Source of the DNA: Naegleria gruberi | Lineage: Eukaryota | Assembly: GCA_000004985.1 (NCBI GenBank) | Contig: GG738845.1 | Direction: 5' to 3' (one strand) | Length of the DNA: 64,000 nt | Part shown: positions 15,779-23,213 of the stretch, one piece after another | Layout of the letters: every line of letters begins with the position of its first letter | Numbering within the stretch: position 1 is the stretch's first letter | Position numbers and translations under genes: made by a program | The notes under the pieces: generated by a model | Told to the model about the DNA's origin: nothing | The model's input: only the letters and a program-made list of their open reading frames with translations | The model's database searches: none

Positions 15779-16528
15779 ATGATTAAACGTGTTTCATCAT
15801 CTGCTTTAAAAACTAAATTACCTTCTCTCAACCTCTTGTTAGAAAAGTGTTATCAGACAAAATCCTTTTCCACTGAAGTAAATAGTGATGGAGTAGATAA
15901 AAGTGGATTAATTTGGAGAGAACCGGAAGAACTTGAAGATGAAATGAATATCAAAGGAATGATAAGAGTAGATCATGCAGGTGAATTAGGAGCAGTGACC
16001 ATTTGCAAATCTCATAAAATTGTACTAGGAGAGGATCCGATTGTTAATGAAATTTTGAGTCAAGAGGTTGATCATTTTGCAACTTTTGACAAAATGATAT
16101 TGGAACGAAGAGTAAGGCCAACCATTTTCAGGTCATTATGGCAACCTGCTGGTGTCATGTTAGGTGTTGGTACTGCCATGATGGGTAGAAATTATGCTAT
16201 GGCTTGTCATGAAGCAATTGAAAATACTATTTTCGATCACTACAATGAACAATTAAGAGATATTTATGACATGTCTATTAAGAAGACAGAGGAAAAGAAA
16301 GAATCAGACTCGGAAACTGATTACTATTTCAAATCAGATCATCAAAGACAGGAAATTCAAGAAAAAGATCTCAGAGATATAATTAAACAATACAGAGATG
16401 AAGAATTACATCATCATGATATTGCAAGAGATGCCAATACTGAAAAGGAAAATTTACTTTACAAATTAACTTATGGATTTGTATCAACAGGATGTTCTAT
16501 TGTTATTGCTCTTACCAAGAGACTTTAA
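15779..16528 (+). CDS. COQ7: Ubiquinone biosynthesis monooxygenase COQ7 (demethoxyubiquinone hydroxylase), mitochondrial
   Basis: 249-aa ORF. Di-iron carboxylate motifs MIRVDHAGELGA, EVDHFATF, RVRPT, AMACHEAIENTIFDHYNEQL, YRDEELHHHD and a C-terminal GC..VIAL..RL, all aligning with CLK-1/COQ7. Presequence-like N-terminus. Confidence 0.85.
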   Translation: MIKRVSSSALKTKLPSLNLLLEKCYQTKSFSTEVNSDGVDKSGLIWREPEELEDEMNIKGMIRVDHAGELGAVTICKSHKIVLGEDPIVNEILSQEVDHFATFDKMILERRVRPTIFRSLWQPAGVMLGVGTAMMGRNYAMACHEAIENTIFDHYNEQLRDIYDMSIKKTEEKKESDSETDYYFKSDHQRQEIQEKDLRDIIKQYRDEELHHHDIARDANTEKENLLYKLTYGFVSTGCSIVIALTKRL

Positions 16529-16615
16529 CTCTAGTTAATAATGATTTTATCATTGTTCATTGGGTAATCAGGGACATTATTTCGAATAATTACTTGATTT
16601 TGAAAATCAATAAAA

Positions 16616-17545
16616 CTACACTTGTTGTGTGGGTACTTTTACAAATTTAAAAAAACAATCGCTGTTTGACCCTATGGTATTTTCACTTCCAAACCAATAC
16701 TCAAATCTCTTTTGTTTCATAATTTGTTTGATTTTGCAATGTGTTGTTTCCTCTTTCCTACTAATCTTGAAAATTTTACTCTTTTTAACTCTAACCTTCT
16801 CCCAACATATAAATTCTGATGGTGATCCATACTTGGAAGAAATGATTAACTTCATATTTTCAAGCAAACTAAAAGGAAAATTATTTGAAACATCACTTGC
16901 AGTAATTGTGACATTCAATTCTGGACAGGTGAGCATTGGAGGTTCCTTTACTTCATTCCTTTTGTCATTGAATTGGATAAGAAAGGCATTGATAGACTTA
17001 TCTTCTCCAACCATAAATGATGCTTGAATGATAGTCTCTCCTCTATTTACATCCAAATCATACATCATTGTATCCATGATACCAATATTTGTATTAGGCC
17101 CATTAATCGATGAATGAAAAGTTCTAAAAGCATTAATTCCAAATATTTGGATCAATTCTGAAAATGTACTAGAATCACAGAGAGCCAATTTGGAAAATGG
17201 ATCGAATATTATTGTTTCTCGATTGCCATCATCTTGCTTTTGTAATTGAATATATTGAATATATGTTAATGATTGAAAATATTCTTGTAATTTGGAAAAT
17301 ATTTGACCGTCAGGACTATAAAAATTACTCTTAATGATTGATTGTATTGGTGTAATACTCTTTTCCACATCCAGAATATGAGATATATGAATCCATATTG
17401 GATTTTCCTTGACCAATTCTCGTATTTCCTTATTGATATTGAATAAAACAGAAATAAAATCAATCTTATCCACTGCAAATTCCAAAACAGTTAAAATAAT
17501 TTCTTTTGGTAAATCCGTGAACTTTTGCTTGGTTGGTAGCAACAT
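16616..17545 (-). CDS. F-box domain protein, otherwise uncharacterised
   Basis: 309-aa ORF; ATG at 17545. N-terminal F-box-like motif DLPKEIILTVLEFAVDKIDFISVLFNINKEIRELV. Rest not recognised. Confidence 0.45.
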   Translation of the reverse strand: MLLPTKQKFTDLPKEIILTVLEFAVDKIDFISVLFNINKEIRELVKENPIWIHISHILDVEKSITPIQSIIKSNFYSPDGQIFSKLQEYFQSLTYIQYIQLQKQDDGNRETIIFDPFSKLALCDSSTFSELIQIFGINAFRTFHSSINGPNTNIGIMDTMMYDLDVNRGETIIQASFMVGEDKSINAFLIQFNDKRNEVKEPPMLTCPELNVTITASDVSNNFPFSLLENMKLIISSKYGSPSEFICWEKVRVKKSKIFKISRKEETTHCKIKQIMKQKRFEYWFGSENTIGSNSDCFFKFVKVPTQQV

Positions 17546-17663
17546 GTTAACAATAGCTTGATTTGATGCGATGGTAGTGTGGATGTTTTTTTAATTTTTT
17601 GAATTTAAAAATAGGATTCTGTATTACAATAAAATTCTAATAATAAAAATTGCTTGACAAAAT

Positions 17664-19385
17664 ATGACGGAACAATGCAACACAACAAACCAAAATTTGA
17701 ACATCACTATGGAAGATATCCAATTAACTACAACCCCTCCTTCGAAGCTACAAACAATAGATAGGAGAAAAAACTTTGTTAATAGAAATGATCTGGTGAG
17801 ATTGATTGTGCAAGCATTGTATACTTTGGATTATAAAGAAAGTGCAGATTTGTTGGAAAAAGAGTCTGGCATTGATTACCTTTCAAAAGATATTTTACAG
17901 TTAAAAAATTGTATTTTAAAAGGAGATTGGAATCAATCACTCAATATAATTGATCAAACACTAAACAACTCAAATTGTAAGAATATTAATGCCGTAAAGT
18001 ATTACATACTCGAGGAAAAATATATGGAACAACTTTGTGATAGAAATGCAGAAAAAGCATTGATTACTTTAAGAGAAGAGATTACTCCTCTTGTAGTATC
18101 AATTCCCACTCAAAACAATTATACTTCTACTGTTACTAACAATAGTACAATAACTGTACATAATTTACAACAATTAGCAAGTTATCTTGTTTGCACTAAT
18201 ATAGAAGATTTGAAAAATTTGTCTAAATGGAAAAGTATCGAAGGTGGATCAAGAAATGAACTTTTGGAACAAATTCAAAAATTGATTTCCCCTTCATTGA
18301 TTATTCCAGAAAACAAATTAGAACAACTATTATTAACTGCCGTAGAAAATCAAAAAAGAGATTCAATGAGTGATGAGGATATTGATGAAAATGATATGGA
18401 TGAGTCTGAAGATGGAGTTGTATTGTTGAGCAAAAAGTTTTCAATTAATGAAGAAACTTCCATTAGGAAAATTCCAAACAAGATACTACTTACTTTGGAG
18501 GATCACGGTGACGAAGTTTGGATATGTAAATTTTCTAATAATGGACAATTACTGGCAACTTCTAGTATTGACCATTGTATCAATATTTATTCTGTTGAAG
18601 AAGTGTTATCGATAGAAAAAACGAGCCCAAAATTCAAATTACTTTCCTCTGGAAATGTAGTATCACTTTGCTTTTCCCCGGATGATAAGGATTTGCTAGC
18701 TGCAACATGTGACGGAAACGTACACATCTGGAATATTGTTAGTGGTGAACAAAGGGCTTGTTTGAAAAATTTTTCAAATATTGTGGCAGCTTTTTGGAAT
18801 GAAAGTGGGAATCAATTTATTACTATTTCTTCTGAAAAAAGCTCACAAATATCTGTTTGGGAGAAAGATTCAGTTACCATTACAAAATCATTCAAAATTG
18901 ATACACGTATTCAGGATGCTTCTTTATTGAAAGATAATTTAATTATCGTGGCTACTCATGAAAGACAATTACTTTGTTACAATTTGGAGGAGAAAAAACT
19001 TGTAGAGAAAATGAGTGAGGATTATCTCATAACAAGTCTCTGTTCTAGTAAGACTGGAAGATTTGTATTGGTTTCTTTCTGTTCTGAAGATGAAGATGAA
19101 CCTGCTTTAATTCATTTATGGGATTTAAGGGAAAAGAAGATTATTTCAACATTTGAAGGTCTTTGGTCTTTAAAATATGTGATGAGACCAATTTTTATGG
19201 GAAGAGATTTGGTGAGTTGTGGAAGTGAAGATTGTAAAATTTATATTTGGAACAAATCTACTGGTGAGCTTATTGAGACTCTTACTGGTCATTCAGGAGT
19301 TGTAAACTCTGTCGATTACAATGTAAAGTTTGGACTGATAGCTTCTGCCAGTGACGATACAACAGTAAAGATTTGGCGTGATTAA
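17664..19385 (+). CDS. LisH-CTLH-WD40 protein (WDR26/Gid7-like)
   Basis: 573-aa ORF. LisH-like LVRLIVQALYTLDYKESADLLEKESGI and CTLH-like DILQLKNCILKGDWNQSLNIID. C-terminal WD40 repeats (e.g. GHSGVVNSVDYNVKFGLIASASDDTTVKIWR). Confidence 0.7.
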   Translation: MTEQCNTTNQNLNITMEDIQLTTTPPSKLQTIDRRKNFVNRNDLVRLIVQALYTLDYKESADLLEKESGIDYLSKDILQLKNCILKGDWNQSLNIIDQTLNNSNCKNINAVKYYILEEKYMEQLCDRNAEKALITLREEITPLVVSIPTQNNYTSTVTNNSTITVHNLQQLASYLVCTNIEDLKNLSKWKSIEGGSRNELLEQIQKLISPSLIIPENKLEQLLLTAVENQKRDSMSDEDIDENDMDESEDGVVLLSKKFSINEETSIRKIPNKILLTLEDHGDEVWICKFSNNGQLLATSSIDHCINIYSVEEVLSIEKTSPKFKLLSSGNVVSLCFSPDDKDLLAATCDGNVHIWNIVSGEQRACLKNFSNIVAAFWNESGNQFITISSEKSSQISVWEKDSVTITKSFKIDTRIQDASLLKDNLIIVATHERQLLCYNLEEKKLVEKMSEDYLITSLCSSKTGRFVLVSFCSEDEDEPALIHLWDLREKKIISTFEGLWSLKYVMRPIFMGRDLVSCGSEDCKIYIWNKSTGELIETLTGHSGVVNSVDYNVKFGLIASASDDTTVKIWRD

Positions 19386-19438
19386 AAATATTTTCAACAT
19401 AAAAAATCTATTACTTAGTTACACCTCGGAACGATACT

Positions 19439-20397
19439 ATGAACAATCAAGTTAATAATAAATCAAAGCCAAAGTACATGTATAAAATTATTTTTGTTGG
19501 AGATAGTACTTGTGGAAAGACGTATGTAATTTATGATCAAATAATAATTGATATTATTTTGGATTTTATTAAAGAGCATTTATTCAACAATATGTAAATA
19601 ATTACTTCTCCAAGACTTATAAATCAACTCTAGGTGTGGACTTCTCATATAAAGAGTATGACTATGATGAAAATACATGTTTTAATTTACAAGTAGGTTA
19701 ATATTTATGTAACTTATTAATTATTCCAAATCAAAGTTTTGGGTAAGTTTTGTATTTTCATATTATGTTTAATCGAATAATAGGATATTGCAGGACAGGA
19801 AAGGTTTGTTTTGGATATTATTAATTATTATAAAAATTGTTAAAGATTCGGAAGTAAGTACTTTCCCAATTGTTCCAATAATTAACAAAGATTAAAGCCA
19901 TGACAAGTGTTTTTTATAGAGATGCTGTTGTTGCTGTGATTATGTATGATGTGACAAATCCTGTGACATTTGATCATACTAAAGATTGGAAAATTGATAT
20001 TGATTCAAAAGTTTTTCTTCCACCACTCAATGAAAATGATTCTGATGATATTCCAATACCTTGTATTCTAGTTGGAAATAAGATTGATTTAAACAAACAT
20101 GAGAAGCTTAATTTCAAACCAAACGAATTGGATGAATATGTTAAAAAACATGGATTTGCTGGATGGGTTGAAACAAGTGCAAAAGATAGGACAAATATGG
20201 ATAAGGCTGTAAAAATGATAGTGGAACAGGTATTAAAATATCACGAGAAGGAAGTTCAAAGAGAAATTAGACCAGAAAATCCAATGGCAATCAATATCGA
20301 TAAGCTTGTTGGAGATATGCCAAAGAGTGACGATGGATTGAATTCTGAGGATGCCAAGAAAAAGAATTCGTCTTCAGGATCTTGTTGTTCTAAATAA
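19439..20397 (+). CDS. Rab32/Rab38-family small GTPase, 6 exons including 6-, 20- and 8-nt micro-exons
   Basis: Exons 19439..19521, 19575..19692, 19737..19742 (ttttgg = FW), 19784..19803, 19846..19853, 19898..20397; introns 53, 44, 41, 42, 44 nt. Spliced product ...KIIFVGDSTCGKTTAFIQQYVNNYFSKTYKSTLGVDFSYK...[53 protein letters not shown]...ILVGNKIDL...ETSAK...CCSK. Junctions match the vertebrate Rab32 string [31 protein letters not shown] residue for residue. The ORF track sees only the last exon (19900..20397). Confidence 0.75.
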
Positions 20398-20446
20398 TCA
20401 TTTATAAAACATATGGAAATTCCAAACTTGACATTCAAGTAAAAAA

Positions 20447-21068
20447 ATGACTTTAAGCAAACACACAATCATTCCTCCAACAATCATTAACTTCTTTTCC
20501 GATGATAATCATGAGTCACAATTTGTTATTGAGTATTCTATTCATAAATGTCCTCTACTGTTAAAATCCGATATGAACAAAATATTTCCAAGTGCCAAAC
20601 AAATATTCGAGAAGCAACAACTCTACATAATACCAACCTTTCAACATGTATCATGCCCTCTGTTCGTTTTTGATGAGGAAAGTAGTAAACAAAAAGATGA
20701 CAGACTTCATAAGGTTTGTTTTATAATTATTTGAGAGTTATATCGTTTCGTAGTTTTATTCATTTTCTAATTGTTTGAAAGAGTATATTGACACTTTATC
20801 ACAAGGCTACTGGAGTGATTATACGGATCCAGTAACTGGTTATCCAATGTTATCAGAGAGAGGAGGAATGCTTTACAGTGATGTGGATGGTTGTGAAATG
20901 TTTTTAAAGAGCTACACCGTTGATTATTCAATTGCAGAGTGTAGACTCATTTCCCATCCACTTTGGAAAACTCAAGTATATCCTGCTACCTTTTTTACAA
21001 CATGCCCTCCAGAACTACTTGCCGATTTTTTCAACCATTATAAACTTGTGGACAGTAATATTATTTAA
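20447..21068 (+). CDS. MMADHC: MMADHC (cblD)-like cobalamin-trafficking protein, 2 exons
   Basis: Exons 20447..20713 and 20754..21068; 40-nt intron with GTTTGT 5' site, joining ORFs 20447..20734 and 20775..21068 in frame. The C-terminal half (GYWSDYTDPVTGYPMLSERGG...DVDGCEMF...CRLISHPLWKTQVYPATFFT) aligns with human MMADHC (GYWADFIDPSSGLAFFGPY...[25 protein letters not shown]). Confidence 0.6.
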
Positions 21069-21115
21069 ATTAAAATAAAAAATTAAATTATATTATTTTA
21101 AAATTAATAAAAAAA

Positions 21116-22801
21116 ATGAAAATCATCAAATCATCAACATCCTCCGTTTTGAATGCTTTTAACAGAGGAAGAACAGTATCACCTAAAGTTATTTTTCTTT
21201 CTGGAAATAAATTTACCATCAATAACAATAATTATCAAATAATTGCATTTAACAATGTTGGTGGAATGCTGAGAGCATTTTCTTCATTAAATTATTATAA
21301 TAATATTTCCCAAAGTTCTACAATTATTAATATCAATACTGGTATTGAACAAGACATTAGGAAAGCAAAAGACTTGCTCAAGGAGGGGTTTTCCGAGTTT
21401 GAAAATAGGCAATATTTAAAAAGCTATGAGCTTTTTATTAGGGCCTTTTTACTTTTTGACAAACATCAATTATTAACAAGAGAAATTAAGTTAAATGATG
21501 ATAATTTGACAGTTGACTCTTTATTAGCACTTTCAATTGGATTGAATAACTTTGCCGAAACTCTTAGATATATGGCAAAAAGTGGTATTGTGCCTCCAAC
21601 TTTGGCCAAATTGGGACTTAAAGCACCGTCAGTAACAACAGGAACTACAGCTCCTCTTGTTTATACCTCAAAAGATTCAATGAAATTTTATACACAGGCA
21701 GAACAATTATATGAACAGTATCAAAATTTTCTATTAAAGAACCAATCAAATAATAATAGAAAATTATTGGAATTGACACTTTGGAAAGGTACTTTATATA
21801 ACAATGTTGGACTTTATTTTATGGAAAATAGAAGAGATTTTTTCACTGCAACCAAATGGTTTGAAAAGAGTGCAACAGAAAGAGGAAAACTTGTGAAGGA
21901 ATTGGAGGAATTAGAAAATGACAAGGCCACCAAACACGAGGAAGTTGTAAATCAATATGGAGAATCTGAGGACCCATTGAATGCCAACGATCAAAGAATA
22001 CACTTTGCAATCACAAGAAACAATATTGCTCAATGCTATTCTAATTCTAAGCAAATTACTCTTGCCTTGGAAAGTTACAATTACGCTTTGAAGGTTTTTG
22101 AGGATATTAAGGCGAAATTGAAAGAGAAAGAAATCAAATGTATTACACCAGAGAGTAAGAATACTATTGCTAACAGACTTCACATAATTGTATTGAATAA
22201 TATGGGATTAATGTATCATGATCTTGGAAAGTATGAACAATCATTGACATACTTTTCTGAAGCATTTTTCATGTTCACAGGTGGACCAGTGAATGGAGAA
22301 AAACTTGGTGAAGAAGGGCTTATTGTTAATAATCAAATAGGAACTCAATATTTTGGAGAAGAGTTGGGTGTTACCTTGTCAAATATGGGTACAAGTTTAT
22401 TCATGTTAGGTAGATATAGAGAATGTGAACAATTTTACAGACAAGCTATGGGCTTATTTGATGTTATTTATGAAAATACTCCAAACCATAAGAATATTGC
22501 ACAAGTTAGTCTTCAATTAGCCCTTTGCTTGAAGCAAAAACATTCAGCAAAGGAGGGAGAAAAGCCAAACAAGGATTTACTGGCTGCTGCTACTTCATTA
22601 GCCCTCGCCAAACAGGACCCATCCTATTTTATCAAACTTGATTCGAATGCATCAGAAGAAATGATTGGAGATGAAAAGCAAGTTAGGCACTTGATAGAAA
22701 AGGCCAAGAAAATAACATCAACCTTTGCGGATGCAAATACAGAAGCAGTAGAGAATACCAAAAAGTCAATGTTTTCTAAAATGTTTGGAAAGAAAAAATA
22801 A
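21116..22801 (+). CDS. TPR-repeat protein (kinesin-light-chain-type TPR_10/12 repeats)
   Basis: 561-aa ORF. Repeats such as LYNNVGLYFMENRRDFFTATKWFEKSA, LNNMGLMYHDLGKYEQSLTYFSEA and LSNMGTSLFMLGRYRECEQFYRQAMGLFD. Confidence 0.55.
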   Translation: MKIIKSSTSSVLNAFNRGRTVSPKVIFLSGNKFTINNNNYQIIAFNNVGGMLRAFSSLNYYNNISQSSTIININTGIEQDIRKAKDLLKEGFSEFENRQYLKSYELFIRAFLLFDKHQLLTREIKLNDDNLTVDSLLALSIGLNNFAETLRYMAKSGIVPPTLAKLGLKAPSVTTGTTAPLVYTSKDSMKFYTQAEQLYEQYQNFLLKNQSNNNRKLLELTLWKGTLYNNVGLYFMENRRDFFTATKWFEKSATERGKLVKELEELENDKATKHEEVVNQYGESEDPLNANDQRIHFAITRNNIAQCYSNSKQITLALESYNYALKVFEDIKAKLKEKEIKCITPESKNTIANRLHIIVLNNMGLMYHDLGKYEQSLTYFSEAFFMFTGGPVNGEKLGEEGLIVNNQIGTQYFGEELGVTLSNMGTSLFMLGRYRECEQFYRQAMGLFDVIYENTPNHKNIAQVSLQLALCLKQKHSAKEGEKPNKDLLAAATSLALAKQDPSYFIKLDSNASEEMIGDEKQVRHLIEKAKKITSTFADANTEAVENTKKSMFSKMFGKKK

Positions 22802-22859
22802 TTCTTCATCTCATTTTGGAATACTTACAAACTTGTAACGTTGTTTACAATAAAAACAA

Positions 22860-23213
22860 ATGAAACAAAACCTCTCTGCAGAACCCTCTACCGAACATAT
22901 TTTCCCAGTCTTTATTAACGCCCAACTTTTTAAACCTCTCTCAATTCAAAAACCAAAACGTTTACTCAAACGCTCTCCATCAATAATCACAACTGTCGAT
23001 GTGCAACATTTAGGAAGAGCCTTCTCTGCTCAATTAGTACTCCAGTTTAGAGGTGAGATTGACAATGATCTCATCTATAAGAATTTGATAAGAAAGGCTT
23101 TGAGACCTCTTAATCCGGAAGACTACAATCTAAATGTTCAACAATCAATTAGGGCATCTAGAGAACTTATTTCCAAGTTAAATGAAAATGTTACCACAAT
23201 GTTCTTTATTTAA
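22860..23213 (+). CDS. Hypothetical small basic protein (117 aa)
   Basis: ORF with ATG at 22860; no recognisable domain. Its stop overlaps the stop of the convergent gene 23210..24892. Confidence 0.3.
   Translation: MKQNLSAEPSTEHIFPVFINAQLFKPLSIQKPKRLLKRSPSIITTVDVQHLGRAFSAQLVLQFRGEIDNDLIYKNLIRKALRPLNPEDYNLNVQQSIRASRELISKLNENVTTMFFI

What the first reader, a model, noticed from the sequence alone, without database searches (positions are those of the whole stretch)
19439..20397. Rab32-family GTPase gene assembled from six exons including 6-nt and 8-nt micro-exons
Reading across the locus, the conserved Rab32 string [31 protein letters not shown] is encoded in pieces. ttttgg (FW, 19737-19742) is flanked by caaAG| and |GTAAGT. 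gatattgcaggacaggaaag (19784-19803) is followed by GTTTGT. attcggaa (19846-19853) is flanked by ttaaAG| and |GTAAGT. The final exon starts at 19898. Every junction restores both the frame and the residue-by-residue match to Rab32 ([31 protein letters not shown]), including the invariant W of WDxAGQE. Exons of 6 and 8 nt separated by 41-44-nt introns are at the extreme of what spliceosomes are known to handle and would be missed by standard gene finders. The ORF track shows only the last exon.
Basis: partly seen in the sequence, partly recalled or inferred. Interest (0 to 1): 0.75.

Follow-up and report, generated by a model that had tools for sequence, protein, structure and literature searches.

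The report
Naegleria Rab32 gene with micro-exons

Summary
Every coordinate, splice dinucleotide and the 244-aa product check out. The window is Naegleria gruberi NEG-M. The locus is the annotated gene XP_002683044.1 / UniProt D2UXK2, "rab family small GTPase".

No transcript could be retrieved, so support for the six-exon chain (83/118/6/20/8/500 nt) is comparative, but it is strong:
- N. fowleri and N. lovaniensis carry identical TTTTGG and ATTCGGAA micro-exons with intact splice sites, inside introns otherwise no more alike than shuffled sequence.
- A metagenomic relative has the 20- and 8-nt exons fused. Willaertia magna has LQFWDI and RFGSMTS uninterrupted. Each junction is therefore confirmed by a relative that lacks that intron.

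The product is a Rab32/38/29-type GTPase (human Rab32, E = 3e-51).

Novelty is low:
- The N. lovaniensis reference protein already uses this exact chain.
- A 2021 manual curation of the N. gruberi gene already includes FW.
- New here: the N. gruberi reference and curated models miss the 8-nt exon (ERFIKAMTS instead of ERFGTMTS), and the N. fowleri reference protein lacks FW.

Exons of 1-5 nt are validated elsewhere, so "extreme" is overstated.

The parts
19439..19521 (+). Exon 1 (83 nt). Start codon and the P-loop GDSTCGKT. It ends 2 nt into codon T28 (phase-2 intron follows).
   Evidence: The same N-terminus is in reference model XP_002683044.1. This intron position is shared by all five species.
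19522..19574 (+). Intron 1 (53 nt), GTATGT...AAAG, 15% GC.
   Evidence: It lies at the same position in N. fowleri, N. lovaniensis, L006 and Willaertia.
19575..19692 (+). Exon 2 (118 nt), A29-Q67, including switch I (YKSTLGVDF).
   Evidence: The exon is 118 nt in all four Naegleria-type sequences and 81-82% identical to N. fowleri and N. lovaniensis.
19693..19736 (+). Intron 2 (44 nt), GTAGGT...AAAG, phase 0.
   Evidence: It is absent in Willaertia, where LQFW is contiguous. Its interior is no more similar to the N. fowleri intron than shuffled sequence.
19737..19742 (+). Exon 3, a 6-nt micro-exon TTTTGG encoding F68-W69. W69 is the tryptophan of the WDxAGQE motif.
   Evidence: AG|TTTTGG|GT is identical in N. 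fowleri L001 3348-3353, N. lovaniensis L005 3330-3335 and L006 2643-2648. Willaertia reads TTCTGG, a synonymous change, inside a longer exon. The exon is present in the N. lovaniensis reference protein and in the Herman et al. 2021 curated model.
19743..19783 (+). Intron 3 (41 nt), GTAAGT...ATAG, phase 0.
   Evidence: The matching introns are 89 nt in N. fowleri, 66 nt in N. lovaniensis and 49 nt in L006.
19784..19803 (+). Exon 4, a 20-nt micro-exon GATATTGCAGGACAGGAAAG encoding D70-E75 plus 2 nt of R76 (DIAGQE, the G3 motif and start of switch II).
   Evidence: All 2-4 differences from each of the four other species are synonymous.
19804..19845 (+). Intron 4 (42 nt), GTTTGT...AAAG, phase 2.
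   Evidence: It is absent in L006, where CAAGAACGATTTGGAA is contiguous. It is present at the same position in Willaertia. The same AAG|GTTTGTTTT donor is used by the 40-nt intron of the neighbouring MMADHC-like gene.
19846..19853 (+). Exon 5, an 8-nt micro-exon ATTCGGAA. It supplies the last base of R76, then F77, G78 and the first base of T79.
   Evidence: The 16-mer AG|ATTCGGAA|GTAAGT is identical in N. fowleri L001 3514-3521 and N. lovaniensis L005 3475-3482. L006 has ATTTGGAA fused to exon 4. The exon is included in the N. fowleri and N. lovaniensis reference proteins (RFGT). It is missing from the N. gruberi reference and curated models.
19854..19897 (+). Intron 5 (44 nt), GTAAGT...AAAG, phase 1.
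   Evidence: It is absent in Willaertia, where RFGSMTS is contiguous.
19898..20397 (+). Exon 6 (500 nt including the TAA stop). It encodes the rest of the GTPase domain (NKID, ETSAK), the C-terminal tail and the CCSK prenylation motif.
   Evidence: This is the 165-aa ORF 19900-20397 seen.
19804..19897 (+). Stretch where the rival model differs. The reference and curated chain uses exon 19784-19807 (24 nt), one intron 19808-19890 (GTTTTG...AAAG) and a last exon from 19891. This gives ERFIKAMTS.
   Evidence: It is judged less likely for three reasons: the donor is weaker, it is impossible in N. fowleri and N. lovaniensis, and its Pfam and orthologue scores are lower.

Best explanation
Window 19439-20397 (+) is the Naegleria gruberi NEG-M gene annotated as XP_002683044.1 / D2UXK2. 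It encodes a Rab32-family small GTPase of a paralogue found so far only in heteroloboseans.

Its pre-mRNA carries five short GT-AG introns (41-53 nt). Four of them are packed into the 205 nt that encode beta-strand 3 and switch II, leaving three consecutive micro-exons of 6, 20 and 8 nt. Removing all five introns gives a 244-aa protein. It has intact G1-G5 motifs, the Rab32-type [10 protein letters not shown] signature and a CCSK prenylation tail.

Shown: the sequence, the frame, the homology, and conservation of the exon-intron structure across the genus.

Inferred:
- The introns are recognised one by one across the intron (intron definition), each with its own donor, branch-site-like TNA motif and AG.
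- Because the acceptor and the next donor are only 6 or 8 nt apart, the flanking introns are probably removed one after the other rather than at the same time.
- All three micro-exons are constitutive. Skipping the 20- or 8-nt exon breaks the frame, and skipping the 6-nt exon deletes the conserved F-W of strand beta-3.
- By family analogy, the protein cycles between GTP and GDP states on endolysosomal or lysosome-related membranes.
For: Source:
- Three window ORFs are exact matches to N. gruberi NEG-M proteins, including the gene immediately upstream, XP_002683043.1.

Identity:
- Pfam Ras scores 139 bits.
- The top nine PDB sequence matches are Rab32, Rab38 and Rab29 (E = 3e-51 to 5e-46), against 3e-32 for Rab7. 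The alignment is gapless through the micro-exon region.
- Herman et al. 2021 list this gene as Rab32.

Exon chain:
- N. fowleri and N. lovaniensis have 62/118/6/20/8/515-nt exons. Their micro-exons are 6/6, 17-18/20 and 8/8 identical to the window. Intron interiors score at or below shuffled controls, and intron lengths differ.
- Every substitution in the micro-exons among the five species is synonymous, except for Thr to Ser at codon 79 in Willaertia.
- L006 fuses the 20- and 8-nt exons. Willaertia has LQFWDI and RFGSMTS contiguous.
- The N. lovaniensis protein XP_044552657.1 contains both micro-exons and was predicted with BRAKER1 and RNA-seq.
- The chain is the best of 1,667 alternatives.
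- It has the highest Pfam score among four candidate products: 139.3 against 134.1, 132.2 and 126.9 bits.
Against: - No transcript or cDNA of N. gruberi was available. A degenerate search for the spliced junction in JGI metagenome and metatranscriptome contigs found nothing. The 244-aa product is not in the 15-billion-protein collection.
- The reference model and the 2021 manual curation for N. gruberi both use a different, legal GT-AG path (24-nt exon, ERFIKAMTS) instead of the 8-nt exon.
- The N. fowleri model was also built with RNA-seq hints, yet it omits FW. FW skipping as a real isoform is therefore not excluded.
- The splicing mechanism, including intron definition and order of removal, is inference only.
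Confidence: 0.85

Rival explanations
1. N. gruberi does not use the 8-nt exon. Exon 4 runs 4 nt further (19784-19807, reading GAA AGG TTT). A single 83-nt intron (19808-19890, GTTTTG...AAAG) is removed and the last exon starts at 19891 (ATT AAA GCC ATG). This gives ...[16 protein letters not shown]..., as in the reference model XP_002683044.1 (without FW) and the Herman et al. 2021 curated model (with FW).
For: The path is a legal, in-frame, stop-free GT-AG chain and ranks third of 1,667. It is the path chosen by the JGI annotation and kept by expert manual curation. The product is still a recognisable Ras-family domain at 134 bits.
Against: - The donor TTT|GTTTTG matches the U1 consensus only at +1 and +2.
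- In N. fowleri and N. lovaniensis the read-through is GAA AGG TAA, a stop codon, so they cannot use this path.
- The 16-mer AG|ATTCGGAA|GTAAGT is retained unchanged inside what would be a neutral intron, although intron interiors are randomised at this divergence.
- ERFG[TS]MTS is invariant in the five orthologues, and the Gly is present in human Rab32.
- The path adds one residue to switch II and scores lower.
Confidence: 0.1
2. The 6-nt FW exon is skipped, either always or in a regulated isoform. Exon 2 is then joined directly to exon 4 (...NLQDIAGQE...), as annotated in N. fowleri (XP_044562610.1) and in the N. gruberi reference model.
For: Skipping keeps the frame. Two public annotations use it, and one of them was built with RNA-seq hints.
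Against: - AG|TTTTGG|GT(A/T/G)(A/T/G)GT is conserved in four sequences whose surrounding introns are unalignable.
- Willaertia encodes FW inside an ordinary exon.
- The Trp is in the WDxAGQE motif and aligns without a gap to Rab32 structures.
- The N. lovaniensis model, made with the same pipeline, includes it.
- Short-read aligners are known to lose exons this small (PMC8831610).
- The Pfam score falls by 7 bits.
Confidence: 0.04
3. The locus is a decaying pseudogene, and the apparent micro-exons are leftovers of a disrupted Rab coding sequence.
For: A continuous ORF exists only for the last exon. The coding sequence is interrupted four times within 205 nt.
Against: - Every interruption has GT..AG ends and restores the frame.
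- The same interruptions occur in orthologues at 62-76% protein identity, and substitutions within the micro-exons are synonymous.
- All G motifs and the prenylation tail are intact.
Confidence: 0.01

Closest known systems
Naegleria lovaniensis XP_044552657.1 (C9374_000104, 242 aa), the orthologous gene model
   Same: It has the same six-exon chain with 6-, 20- and 8-nt exons at the same codon positions and phases. Its protein reads ...[25 protein letters not shown]....
   Different: It is a different species. Its introns are 47-90 nt rather than 41-53 nt, its N-terminus is shorter and its genomic neighbours differ.
Naegleria gruberi XP_002683044.1 / EFC50300.1 / UniProt D2UXK2, and its manually corrected version in Herman et al. 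2021 (PMC8296547, Table S8, 'Rab32')
   Same: It is the same locus, with the same exons 1 and 2 and nearly the same last exon. The curated version already contains the 6-nt FW exon.
   Different: The reference model lacks FW. Both versions replace the 20-nt plus 8-nt exons by a 24-nt exon and start the last exon 7 nt earlier, giving ERFIKAMTS instead of ERFGTMTS.
Human RAB32 / RAB38 / RAB29 (Rab32 subfamily; e.g. PDB 5oed, 6ff8, 6s5h, 6hh2)
   Same: These are the best sequence matches (E = 3e-51 to 5e-46). They share the [10 protein letters not shown] signature, the G1-G5 motifs and a C-terminal cysteine motif.
   Different: Identity is about 45-50%. The Naegleria protein has a roughly 7-residue insertion (LPPLNENDSDDIPIP region) and a longer C-terminal tail. 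Herman et al. give this paralogue no 'yes' in their Table S8 column for orthologues outside Heterolobosea. Its function in Naegleria is untested.
Conserved ultra-short micro-exons that annotation pipelines miss (plants: Yu et al. 2022, PMC8831610; human MPC1 4-nt exon, PMC9929638)
   Same: These are coding micro-exons of 15 nt or less, flanked by canonical introns and conserved across species. They are often absent from reference annotation, which yields slightly wrong proteins. Adjacent micro-exons occur too, such as the rice 5-nt and 12-nt pair.
   Different: The lineage here is Discoba (Heterolobosea) and the genome is intron-poor (1.7 exons per gene; PMC8296547). Three micro-exons lie in a row, separated by introns of only 41-44 nt. 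A full-text search found no paper describing micro-exons in Naegleria.

Membership tests
Rab32 subfamily of Rab small GTPases (Rab32/Rab38/Rab29) | Ras-superfamily GTPase domain with G1-G5 motifs (GxxxxGK[ST], switch-I Thr, DxxGQ, NKxD, SAK). | tested here: met
   The motifs are GDSTCGKT, T46 in YKSTLGVDF, DIAGQ, NKID and ETSAK. Pfam Ras PF00071 scores 139.3 bits over profile positions 1-161 of 162.
Rab32 subfamily of Rab small GTPases (Rab32/Rab38/Rab29) | C-terminal cysteine motif for geranylgeranylation. | tested here: met
   The product ends in ...GSCCSK, a CCxx motif. The orthologues end in CCGGK or CCGK, or carry CCGG near the end of a longer tail (Willaertia).
Rab32 subfamily of Rab small GTPases (Rab32/Rab38/Rab29) | Closer to Rab32/38/29 than to any other Rab subfamily. 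| tested here: met
   The nine best PDB sequences are all Rab32, Rab38 or Rab7L1 (161-178 bits). The next best is Rab7 at 115 bits. The named database hits outside the Naegleria and Willaertia relatives are Rab32 and Rab7L1.
Rab32 subfamily of Rab small GTPases (Rab32/Rab38/Rab29) | The switch-II signature [10 protein letters not shown] (Ile instead of the usual Thr of WDTAGQE). | tested here: met
   [11 protein letters not shown] is produced by the six-exon chain and aligns to human Rab32 [11 protein letters not shown]. That this signature is diagnostic for the subfamily rests on my own knowledge.
Rab32 subfamily of Rab small GTPases (Rab32/Rab38/Rab29) | Placement inside the Rab32 clade in a Rab-wide phylogeny. 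| not tested
   No tree was built here. Herman et al. 2021 label the gene 'Rab32', alongside Rab32A and Rab32B, and give it no 'yes' in the 'orthologs outside Heterolobosea' column.
Rab32 subfamily of Rab small GTPases (Rab32/Rab38/Rab29) | GTP binding and hydrolysis, activation by a BLOC-3-type exchange factor, and localisation to endolysosomal or lysosome-related organelles. | not testable with these tools
   These are biochemical and cell-biological properties.
Coding micro-exons (internal exons of 30 nt or less; ultra-short if 15 nt or less) | Bounded on both sides by canonical introns, and restoring the reading frame. | tested here: met
   AG|TTTTGG|GTAAGT, AG|GATATTGCAGGACAGGAAAG|GTTTGT and AG|ATTCGGAA|GTAAGT. 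The frame is kept through 735 nt.
Coding micro-exons (internal exons of 30 nt or less; ultra-short if 15 nt or less) | Exon and splice sites conserved in other species while the flanking introns diverge. | tested here: met
   The exons are identical or synonymously changed in N. fowleri, N. lovaniensis and L006. Intron interiors are no better than shuffled.
Coding micro-exons (internal exons of 30 nt or less; ultra-short if 15 nt or less) | The same codons are contiguous in relatives that lack the intron. | tested here: met
   L006 has GACATTGCTGGACAAGAACGATTTGGAA contiguous. Willaertia has CAATTCTGGGATATA and ATTTGGATCAATGACA contiguous.
Coding micro-exons (internal exons of 30 nt or less; ultra-short if 15 nt or less) | Presence of the micro-exon in mature mRNA. 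| not testable with these tools
   No transcript was found. The only support is indirect: the N. lovaniensis model with both micro-exons came from BRAKER1 with RNA-seq hints.

The most novel reading that the evidence does not exclude
The 6/20/8-nt exon cluster has been kept for the whole Naegleria radiation in an otherwise intron-poor genome. It may be more than an annotation trap. With an acceptor and the next donor only 6 nt apart, the two flanking introns cannot be engaged at once. Splicing would then follow an obligatory order. Inclusion of the in-frame FW exon could be a regulated switch that produces an inactive Rab32 at particular life stages (amoeba, flagellate, cyst). The FW-less, RNA-seq-informed N. 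fowleri model would then reflect a real isoform.
Probability: 0.08. Interest if true: 0.5.

Novelty: already known. Interest (0 to 1): 0.22.

Why it matters
- It gives a concrete correction for two reference proteomes. N. gruberi D2UXK2 / XP_002683044.1 should read ...[18 protein letters not shown]... (244 aa). N. fowleri XP_044562610.1 should contain FW (242 aa). Both errors fall in strand beta-3 and switch II, the parts of a Rab that contact effectors and exchange factors. Structure modelling or phylogeny based on the deposited sequences is therefore slightly wrong.
- It documents conserved ultra-short exons in a discobid protist, a group for which a full-text search found no description of micro-exons.
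- It offers a compact natural substrate for asking how short-intron spliceosomes deal with micro-exons: three micro-exons and four introns in 205 nt.
- None of this changes what is known about Rab32 or about splicing in general.

Tried and rejected
1. Direct transcript evidence: none found.
- A degenerate back-translation of [18 protein letters not shown] was scanned against JGI metagenome contigs and gave 0 hits.
- The search for related loci with the 244-aa protein gave only one distant Rab, at 35% identity (L007).
- The exact 244-aa product is not in the protein collection.

2. A homologue search with the 67-aa exon 1-2 peptide returned nothing, because of the tool's word index. The reference model was instead identified by exact look-up of ten candidate chains.

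3. Introner or duplication origin of the introns: not supported.
- Introns 1, 2 and 4 share short AT-rich strings. Intron 4 contains TTTTGGATATT, which resembles the spliced FW|DI junction.
- Smith-Waterman scores against dinucleotide shuffles are not significant after correcting for multiple tests. The minimum p is 0.024 among the 10 N. gruberi pairs and 0.004 among all 42 pairs.

4. Other features at the locus: rejected.
- Rfam gave no match in 17000-23000.
- Minus-strand ORFs are 70 aa or shorter and lie antisense to the Rab coding sequence.

5. Synteny gave no extra support. The neighbours differ between N. gruberi and N. fowleri or N. lovaniensis.

6. Look-ups of the N. gruberi neighbour gene and of the Rab32A paralogue by exact protein found no record. 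The N. lovaniensis paralogue was used instead.

7. Structure prediction was not run. The gapless alignment to solved Rab32 chains already places FW and RFG in strand beta-3 and switch II.
Full report
**1. Observation**

- An ATG at 19439 opens an 83-nt exon encoding MNNQVNNKSKPKYMYKIIFVGDSTCGKT.
- After a 53-nt GTATGT..AG intron, a 118-nt exon runs to ...CFNLQ at 19692.
- Three very short coding pieces follow: TTTTGG (19737-19742), GATATTGCAGGACAGGAAAG (19784-19803) and ATTCGGAA (19846-19853).
- The last exon runs from 19898 to the stop at 20397.
- The four introns around the short pieces are 44, 41, 42 and 44 nt. All are GT..AG with 14-27% GC.

Joined, the six exons give 735 nt in frame and a 244-aa protein ending in CCSK. 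A six-frame ORF list shows only a 52-aa read-through of exon 1 and the 165-aa last exon.

**2. Source of the window and existing annotation**

Three long ORFs of the window are exact matches to Naegleria gruberi strain NEG-M proteins. One is the WD40/LisH gene just upstream, XP_002683043.1.

I tested ten alternative splice chains by exact look-up. The reference protein at this locus is XP_002683044.1 / EFC50300.1 / UniProt D2UXK2, "rab family small GTPase". It is a 243-aa, four-exon model (19439-19521, 19575-19692, 19784-19807, 19891-20397) reading ...[19 protein letters not shown].... It has neither the 6-nt nor the 8-nt exon.

Herman et al. 2021 (PMC8296547, Additional file 10) list the same accession as a manually corrected "Rab32". 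Their sequence reads ...[21 protein letters not shown].... The FW micro-exon had therefore already been recognised, but the 24-nt exon path was kept.

**3. Gene identity**

- Pfam Ras matches over the whole domain at 139 bits.
- Against PDB sequences, the nine best matches are human or mouse Rab32, Rab38 and Rab29/7L1 (E = 3e-51 to 5e-46). The next family, Rab7, is at 3e-32.
- The micro-exon-encoded stretch aligns without gaps to Rab32.
- The G1-G5 motifs, the Rab32-type [10 protein letters not shown] and a CCxx tail are all present.
- The database neighbours are N. fowleri (76% identity), Willaertia magna (62%) and two metagenomic fragments, followed by canonical Rab32 proteins at about 50% or less.
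- Naegleria has three Rab32 paralogues. This one has no 'yes' in the curators' column for orthologues outside Heterolobosea.

**4. Comparative test of the splice chain**

I fetched the orthologous loci and rebuilt the gene structures.

| Sequence | Exon lengths (nt) | Notes |
|---|---|---|
| N. fowleri (L001) | 62/118/6/20/8/515 | AG\|TTTTGG\|GTATGT and AG\|ATTCGGAA\|GTAAGT at the same codon positions |
| N. lovaniensis (L005) | 62/118/6/20/8/515 | same as N. fowleri |
| Uncultured relative (L006) | 101/118/6/28/494 | FW exon kept; intron 4 absent, so ...CAAGAACGATTTGGAA is contiguous |
| Willaertia magna (L002) | 101/55/75/14/532 | LQFWDI contiguous, RFGSMTS contiguous, and a 14-nt exon of its own |

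- In N. fowleri and N. lovaniensis the introns have different lengths (47-112 nt). Their interiors are no more similar to the N. gruberi introns than shuffled sequence.
- Every nucleotide difference inside the micro-exons among the five species is synonymous. The one exception is Thr to Ser at codon 79 in Willaertia.
- The N. lovaniensis reference protein XP_044552657.1 contains both micro-exons. It was predicted with BRAKER1 using RNA-seq.
- The N. fowleri reference protein contains the 8-nt exon but omits FW.

**5. Alternatives within N. gruberi**

I enumerated all GT-AG chains through 19640-19960, with introns of at least 30 nt and at most four introns. This gives 1,667 stop-free in-frame products. 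The curated path ranks third.

Pfam Ras scores for the four candidate products:

| Product | Ras score (bits) |
|---|---|
| Curated model | 134.1 |
| FW skipped | 132.2 |
| Reference model | 126.9 |

The rival 24-nt exon path has four weaknesses.
- It needs the donor TTT|GTTTTG, which is much weaker than AAG|GTTTGT.
- It cannot exist in N. fowleri or N. lovaniensis, where the read-through is GAA AGG TAA.
- It would leave a perfectly conserved AG|ATTCGGAA|GTAAGT stranded inside an intron.
- It replaces the conserved ERFG with ERFIKA.

The donor GTTTGT itself has a local precedent. The neighbouring MMADHC-like gene needs a 40-nt intron starting AAG|GTTTGTTTT, and a single Pfam match spans that junction.

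**6. Mechanism**

What is shown is the gene structure and its conservation. What follows is inferred.
- With introns of 41-53 nt, each carrying its own donor, a TNA-type branch candidate 12-25 nt upstream of the AG, and an acceptor, recognition is presumably across the intron. Exon length then matters little.
- An acceptor and the next donor lie only 6 or 8 nt apart, so the neighbouring introns are probably removed one after the other.
- Both ultra-short exons are followed by a perfect GTAAGT in N. gruberi.
- Skipping the 20- or 8-nt exon would shift the frame. Skipping FW would delete two residues of strand beta-3, including the conserved Trp. All three are therefore expected to be constitutive.

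**7. Comparison with what is known, and novelty**

- Micro-exons that annotation pipelines miss are well documented. Examples are 2,398 exons of 15 nt or less in ten plants (most of them unannotated), validated 1-nt exons, a validated adjacent pair of 5 and 12 nt in rice (PMC8831610), and a constitutive 4-nt exon in human MPC1 (PMC9929638). Six and eight nucleotides are therefore small but not extreme.
- The exact chain is already in the public N. lovaniensis annotation. The FW exon of the N. gruberi gene is already in a published curated table.
- Two things are new. The N. gruberi reference and curated models miss the 8-nt exon, and the N. fowleri reference protein misses FW.
- A full-text search found no paper describing micro-exons in Naegleria.
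- A cluster of four introns in 205 nt is unusual for a genome averaging 1.7 exons per gene.

**8. Limits**

No N. gruberi transcript could be retrieved, so the chain rests on comparative evidence. Regulated skipping of the in-frame FW exon is not excluded. No Rab phylogeny was built.

**Verdict**

Novelty is low: the gene and the kind of feature are both already known, and the practical value is a gene-model correction.

Noticed in passing
L001 3348-3353 (N. fowleri VFQX01000033.1): The N. fowleri reference protein XP_044562610.1 / KAF0977897.1 (240 aa) reads NLQDIAGQE. It skips a perfectly conserved AG|TTTTGG|GTATGT micro-exon, and the corrected product would be 242 aa. This is probably an annotation error in the Trp of the WDxAGQE motif.
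   Followed up: partly
L002 3001-3986 (Willaertia magna JBEGDK010000020.1): The Willaertia orthologue has a different micro-exon, the 14-nt GCTGGACAAGAAAG. Its upstream intron lies after DI, 6 nt downstream of Naegleria intron 3 and in the same phase. This could be intron sliding or an independent gain. Its extra intron at KAT|VGVDF is at the same position as an intron of the N. lovaniensis Rab32A-type paralogue (L008).
   Followed up: partly
window 20447-21025 (+), intron 20714-20753: The downstream gene is MMADHC-like (Pfam PF10229, E = 8e-18) once a 40-nt intron is removed. That intron starts with the same AAG|GTTTGTTTT as intron 4 of the Rab gene. The single Pfam stretch spans the junction.
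   Followed up: partly
window 19809-19819 (inside intron 4): Intron 4 contains TTTTGGATATT, which resembles the spliced exon 3 / exon 4 junction TTTTGG|GATATT. Introns 1, 2 and 4 also share short AT-rich strings. Shuffle tests give no significant intron-to-intron similarity, so this is probably chance.
   Followed up: yes
L003 and L004 (ENA ERZ929261 / Logan ERR1078381, PRJEB11402): A sample labelled as a metagenome holds contigs whose sequence matches this N. gruberi locus base for base on reading (introns included), so this amoeba or a very close strain was present in that sample.
   Followed up: no
L006 (JGI 3300002220, contig MLSBCLC_10178769) 2335-3256: An uncultured heterolobosean orthologue (66% identity) keeps the 6-nt FW exon but has lost, or never had, intron 4. 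This gives a 28-nt exon and shows intron turnover within this small region.
   Followed up: partly
window 16000-23000 compared with L001 and L005: The Rab gene is not syntenic. In N. gruberi it sits between a WDR26-like LisH/WD40 gene and the MMADHC-like gene. In N. fowleri and N. lovaniensis it sits between an RCC1-like gene and an ArsA/GET3-like ATPase gene.
   Followed up: no
PMC8296547, Additional file 10 (N. gruberi sheet): Many N. gruberi Rab models, including Rab32B XP_002678585.1, needed manual correction or were newly created. Mis-modelled short exons may be common in this gene family.
   Followed up: no
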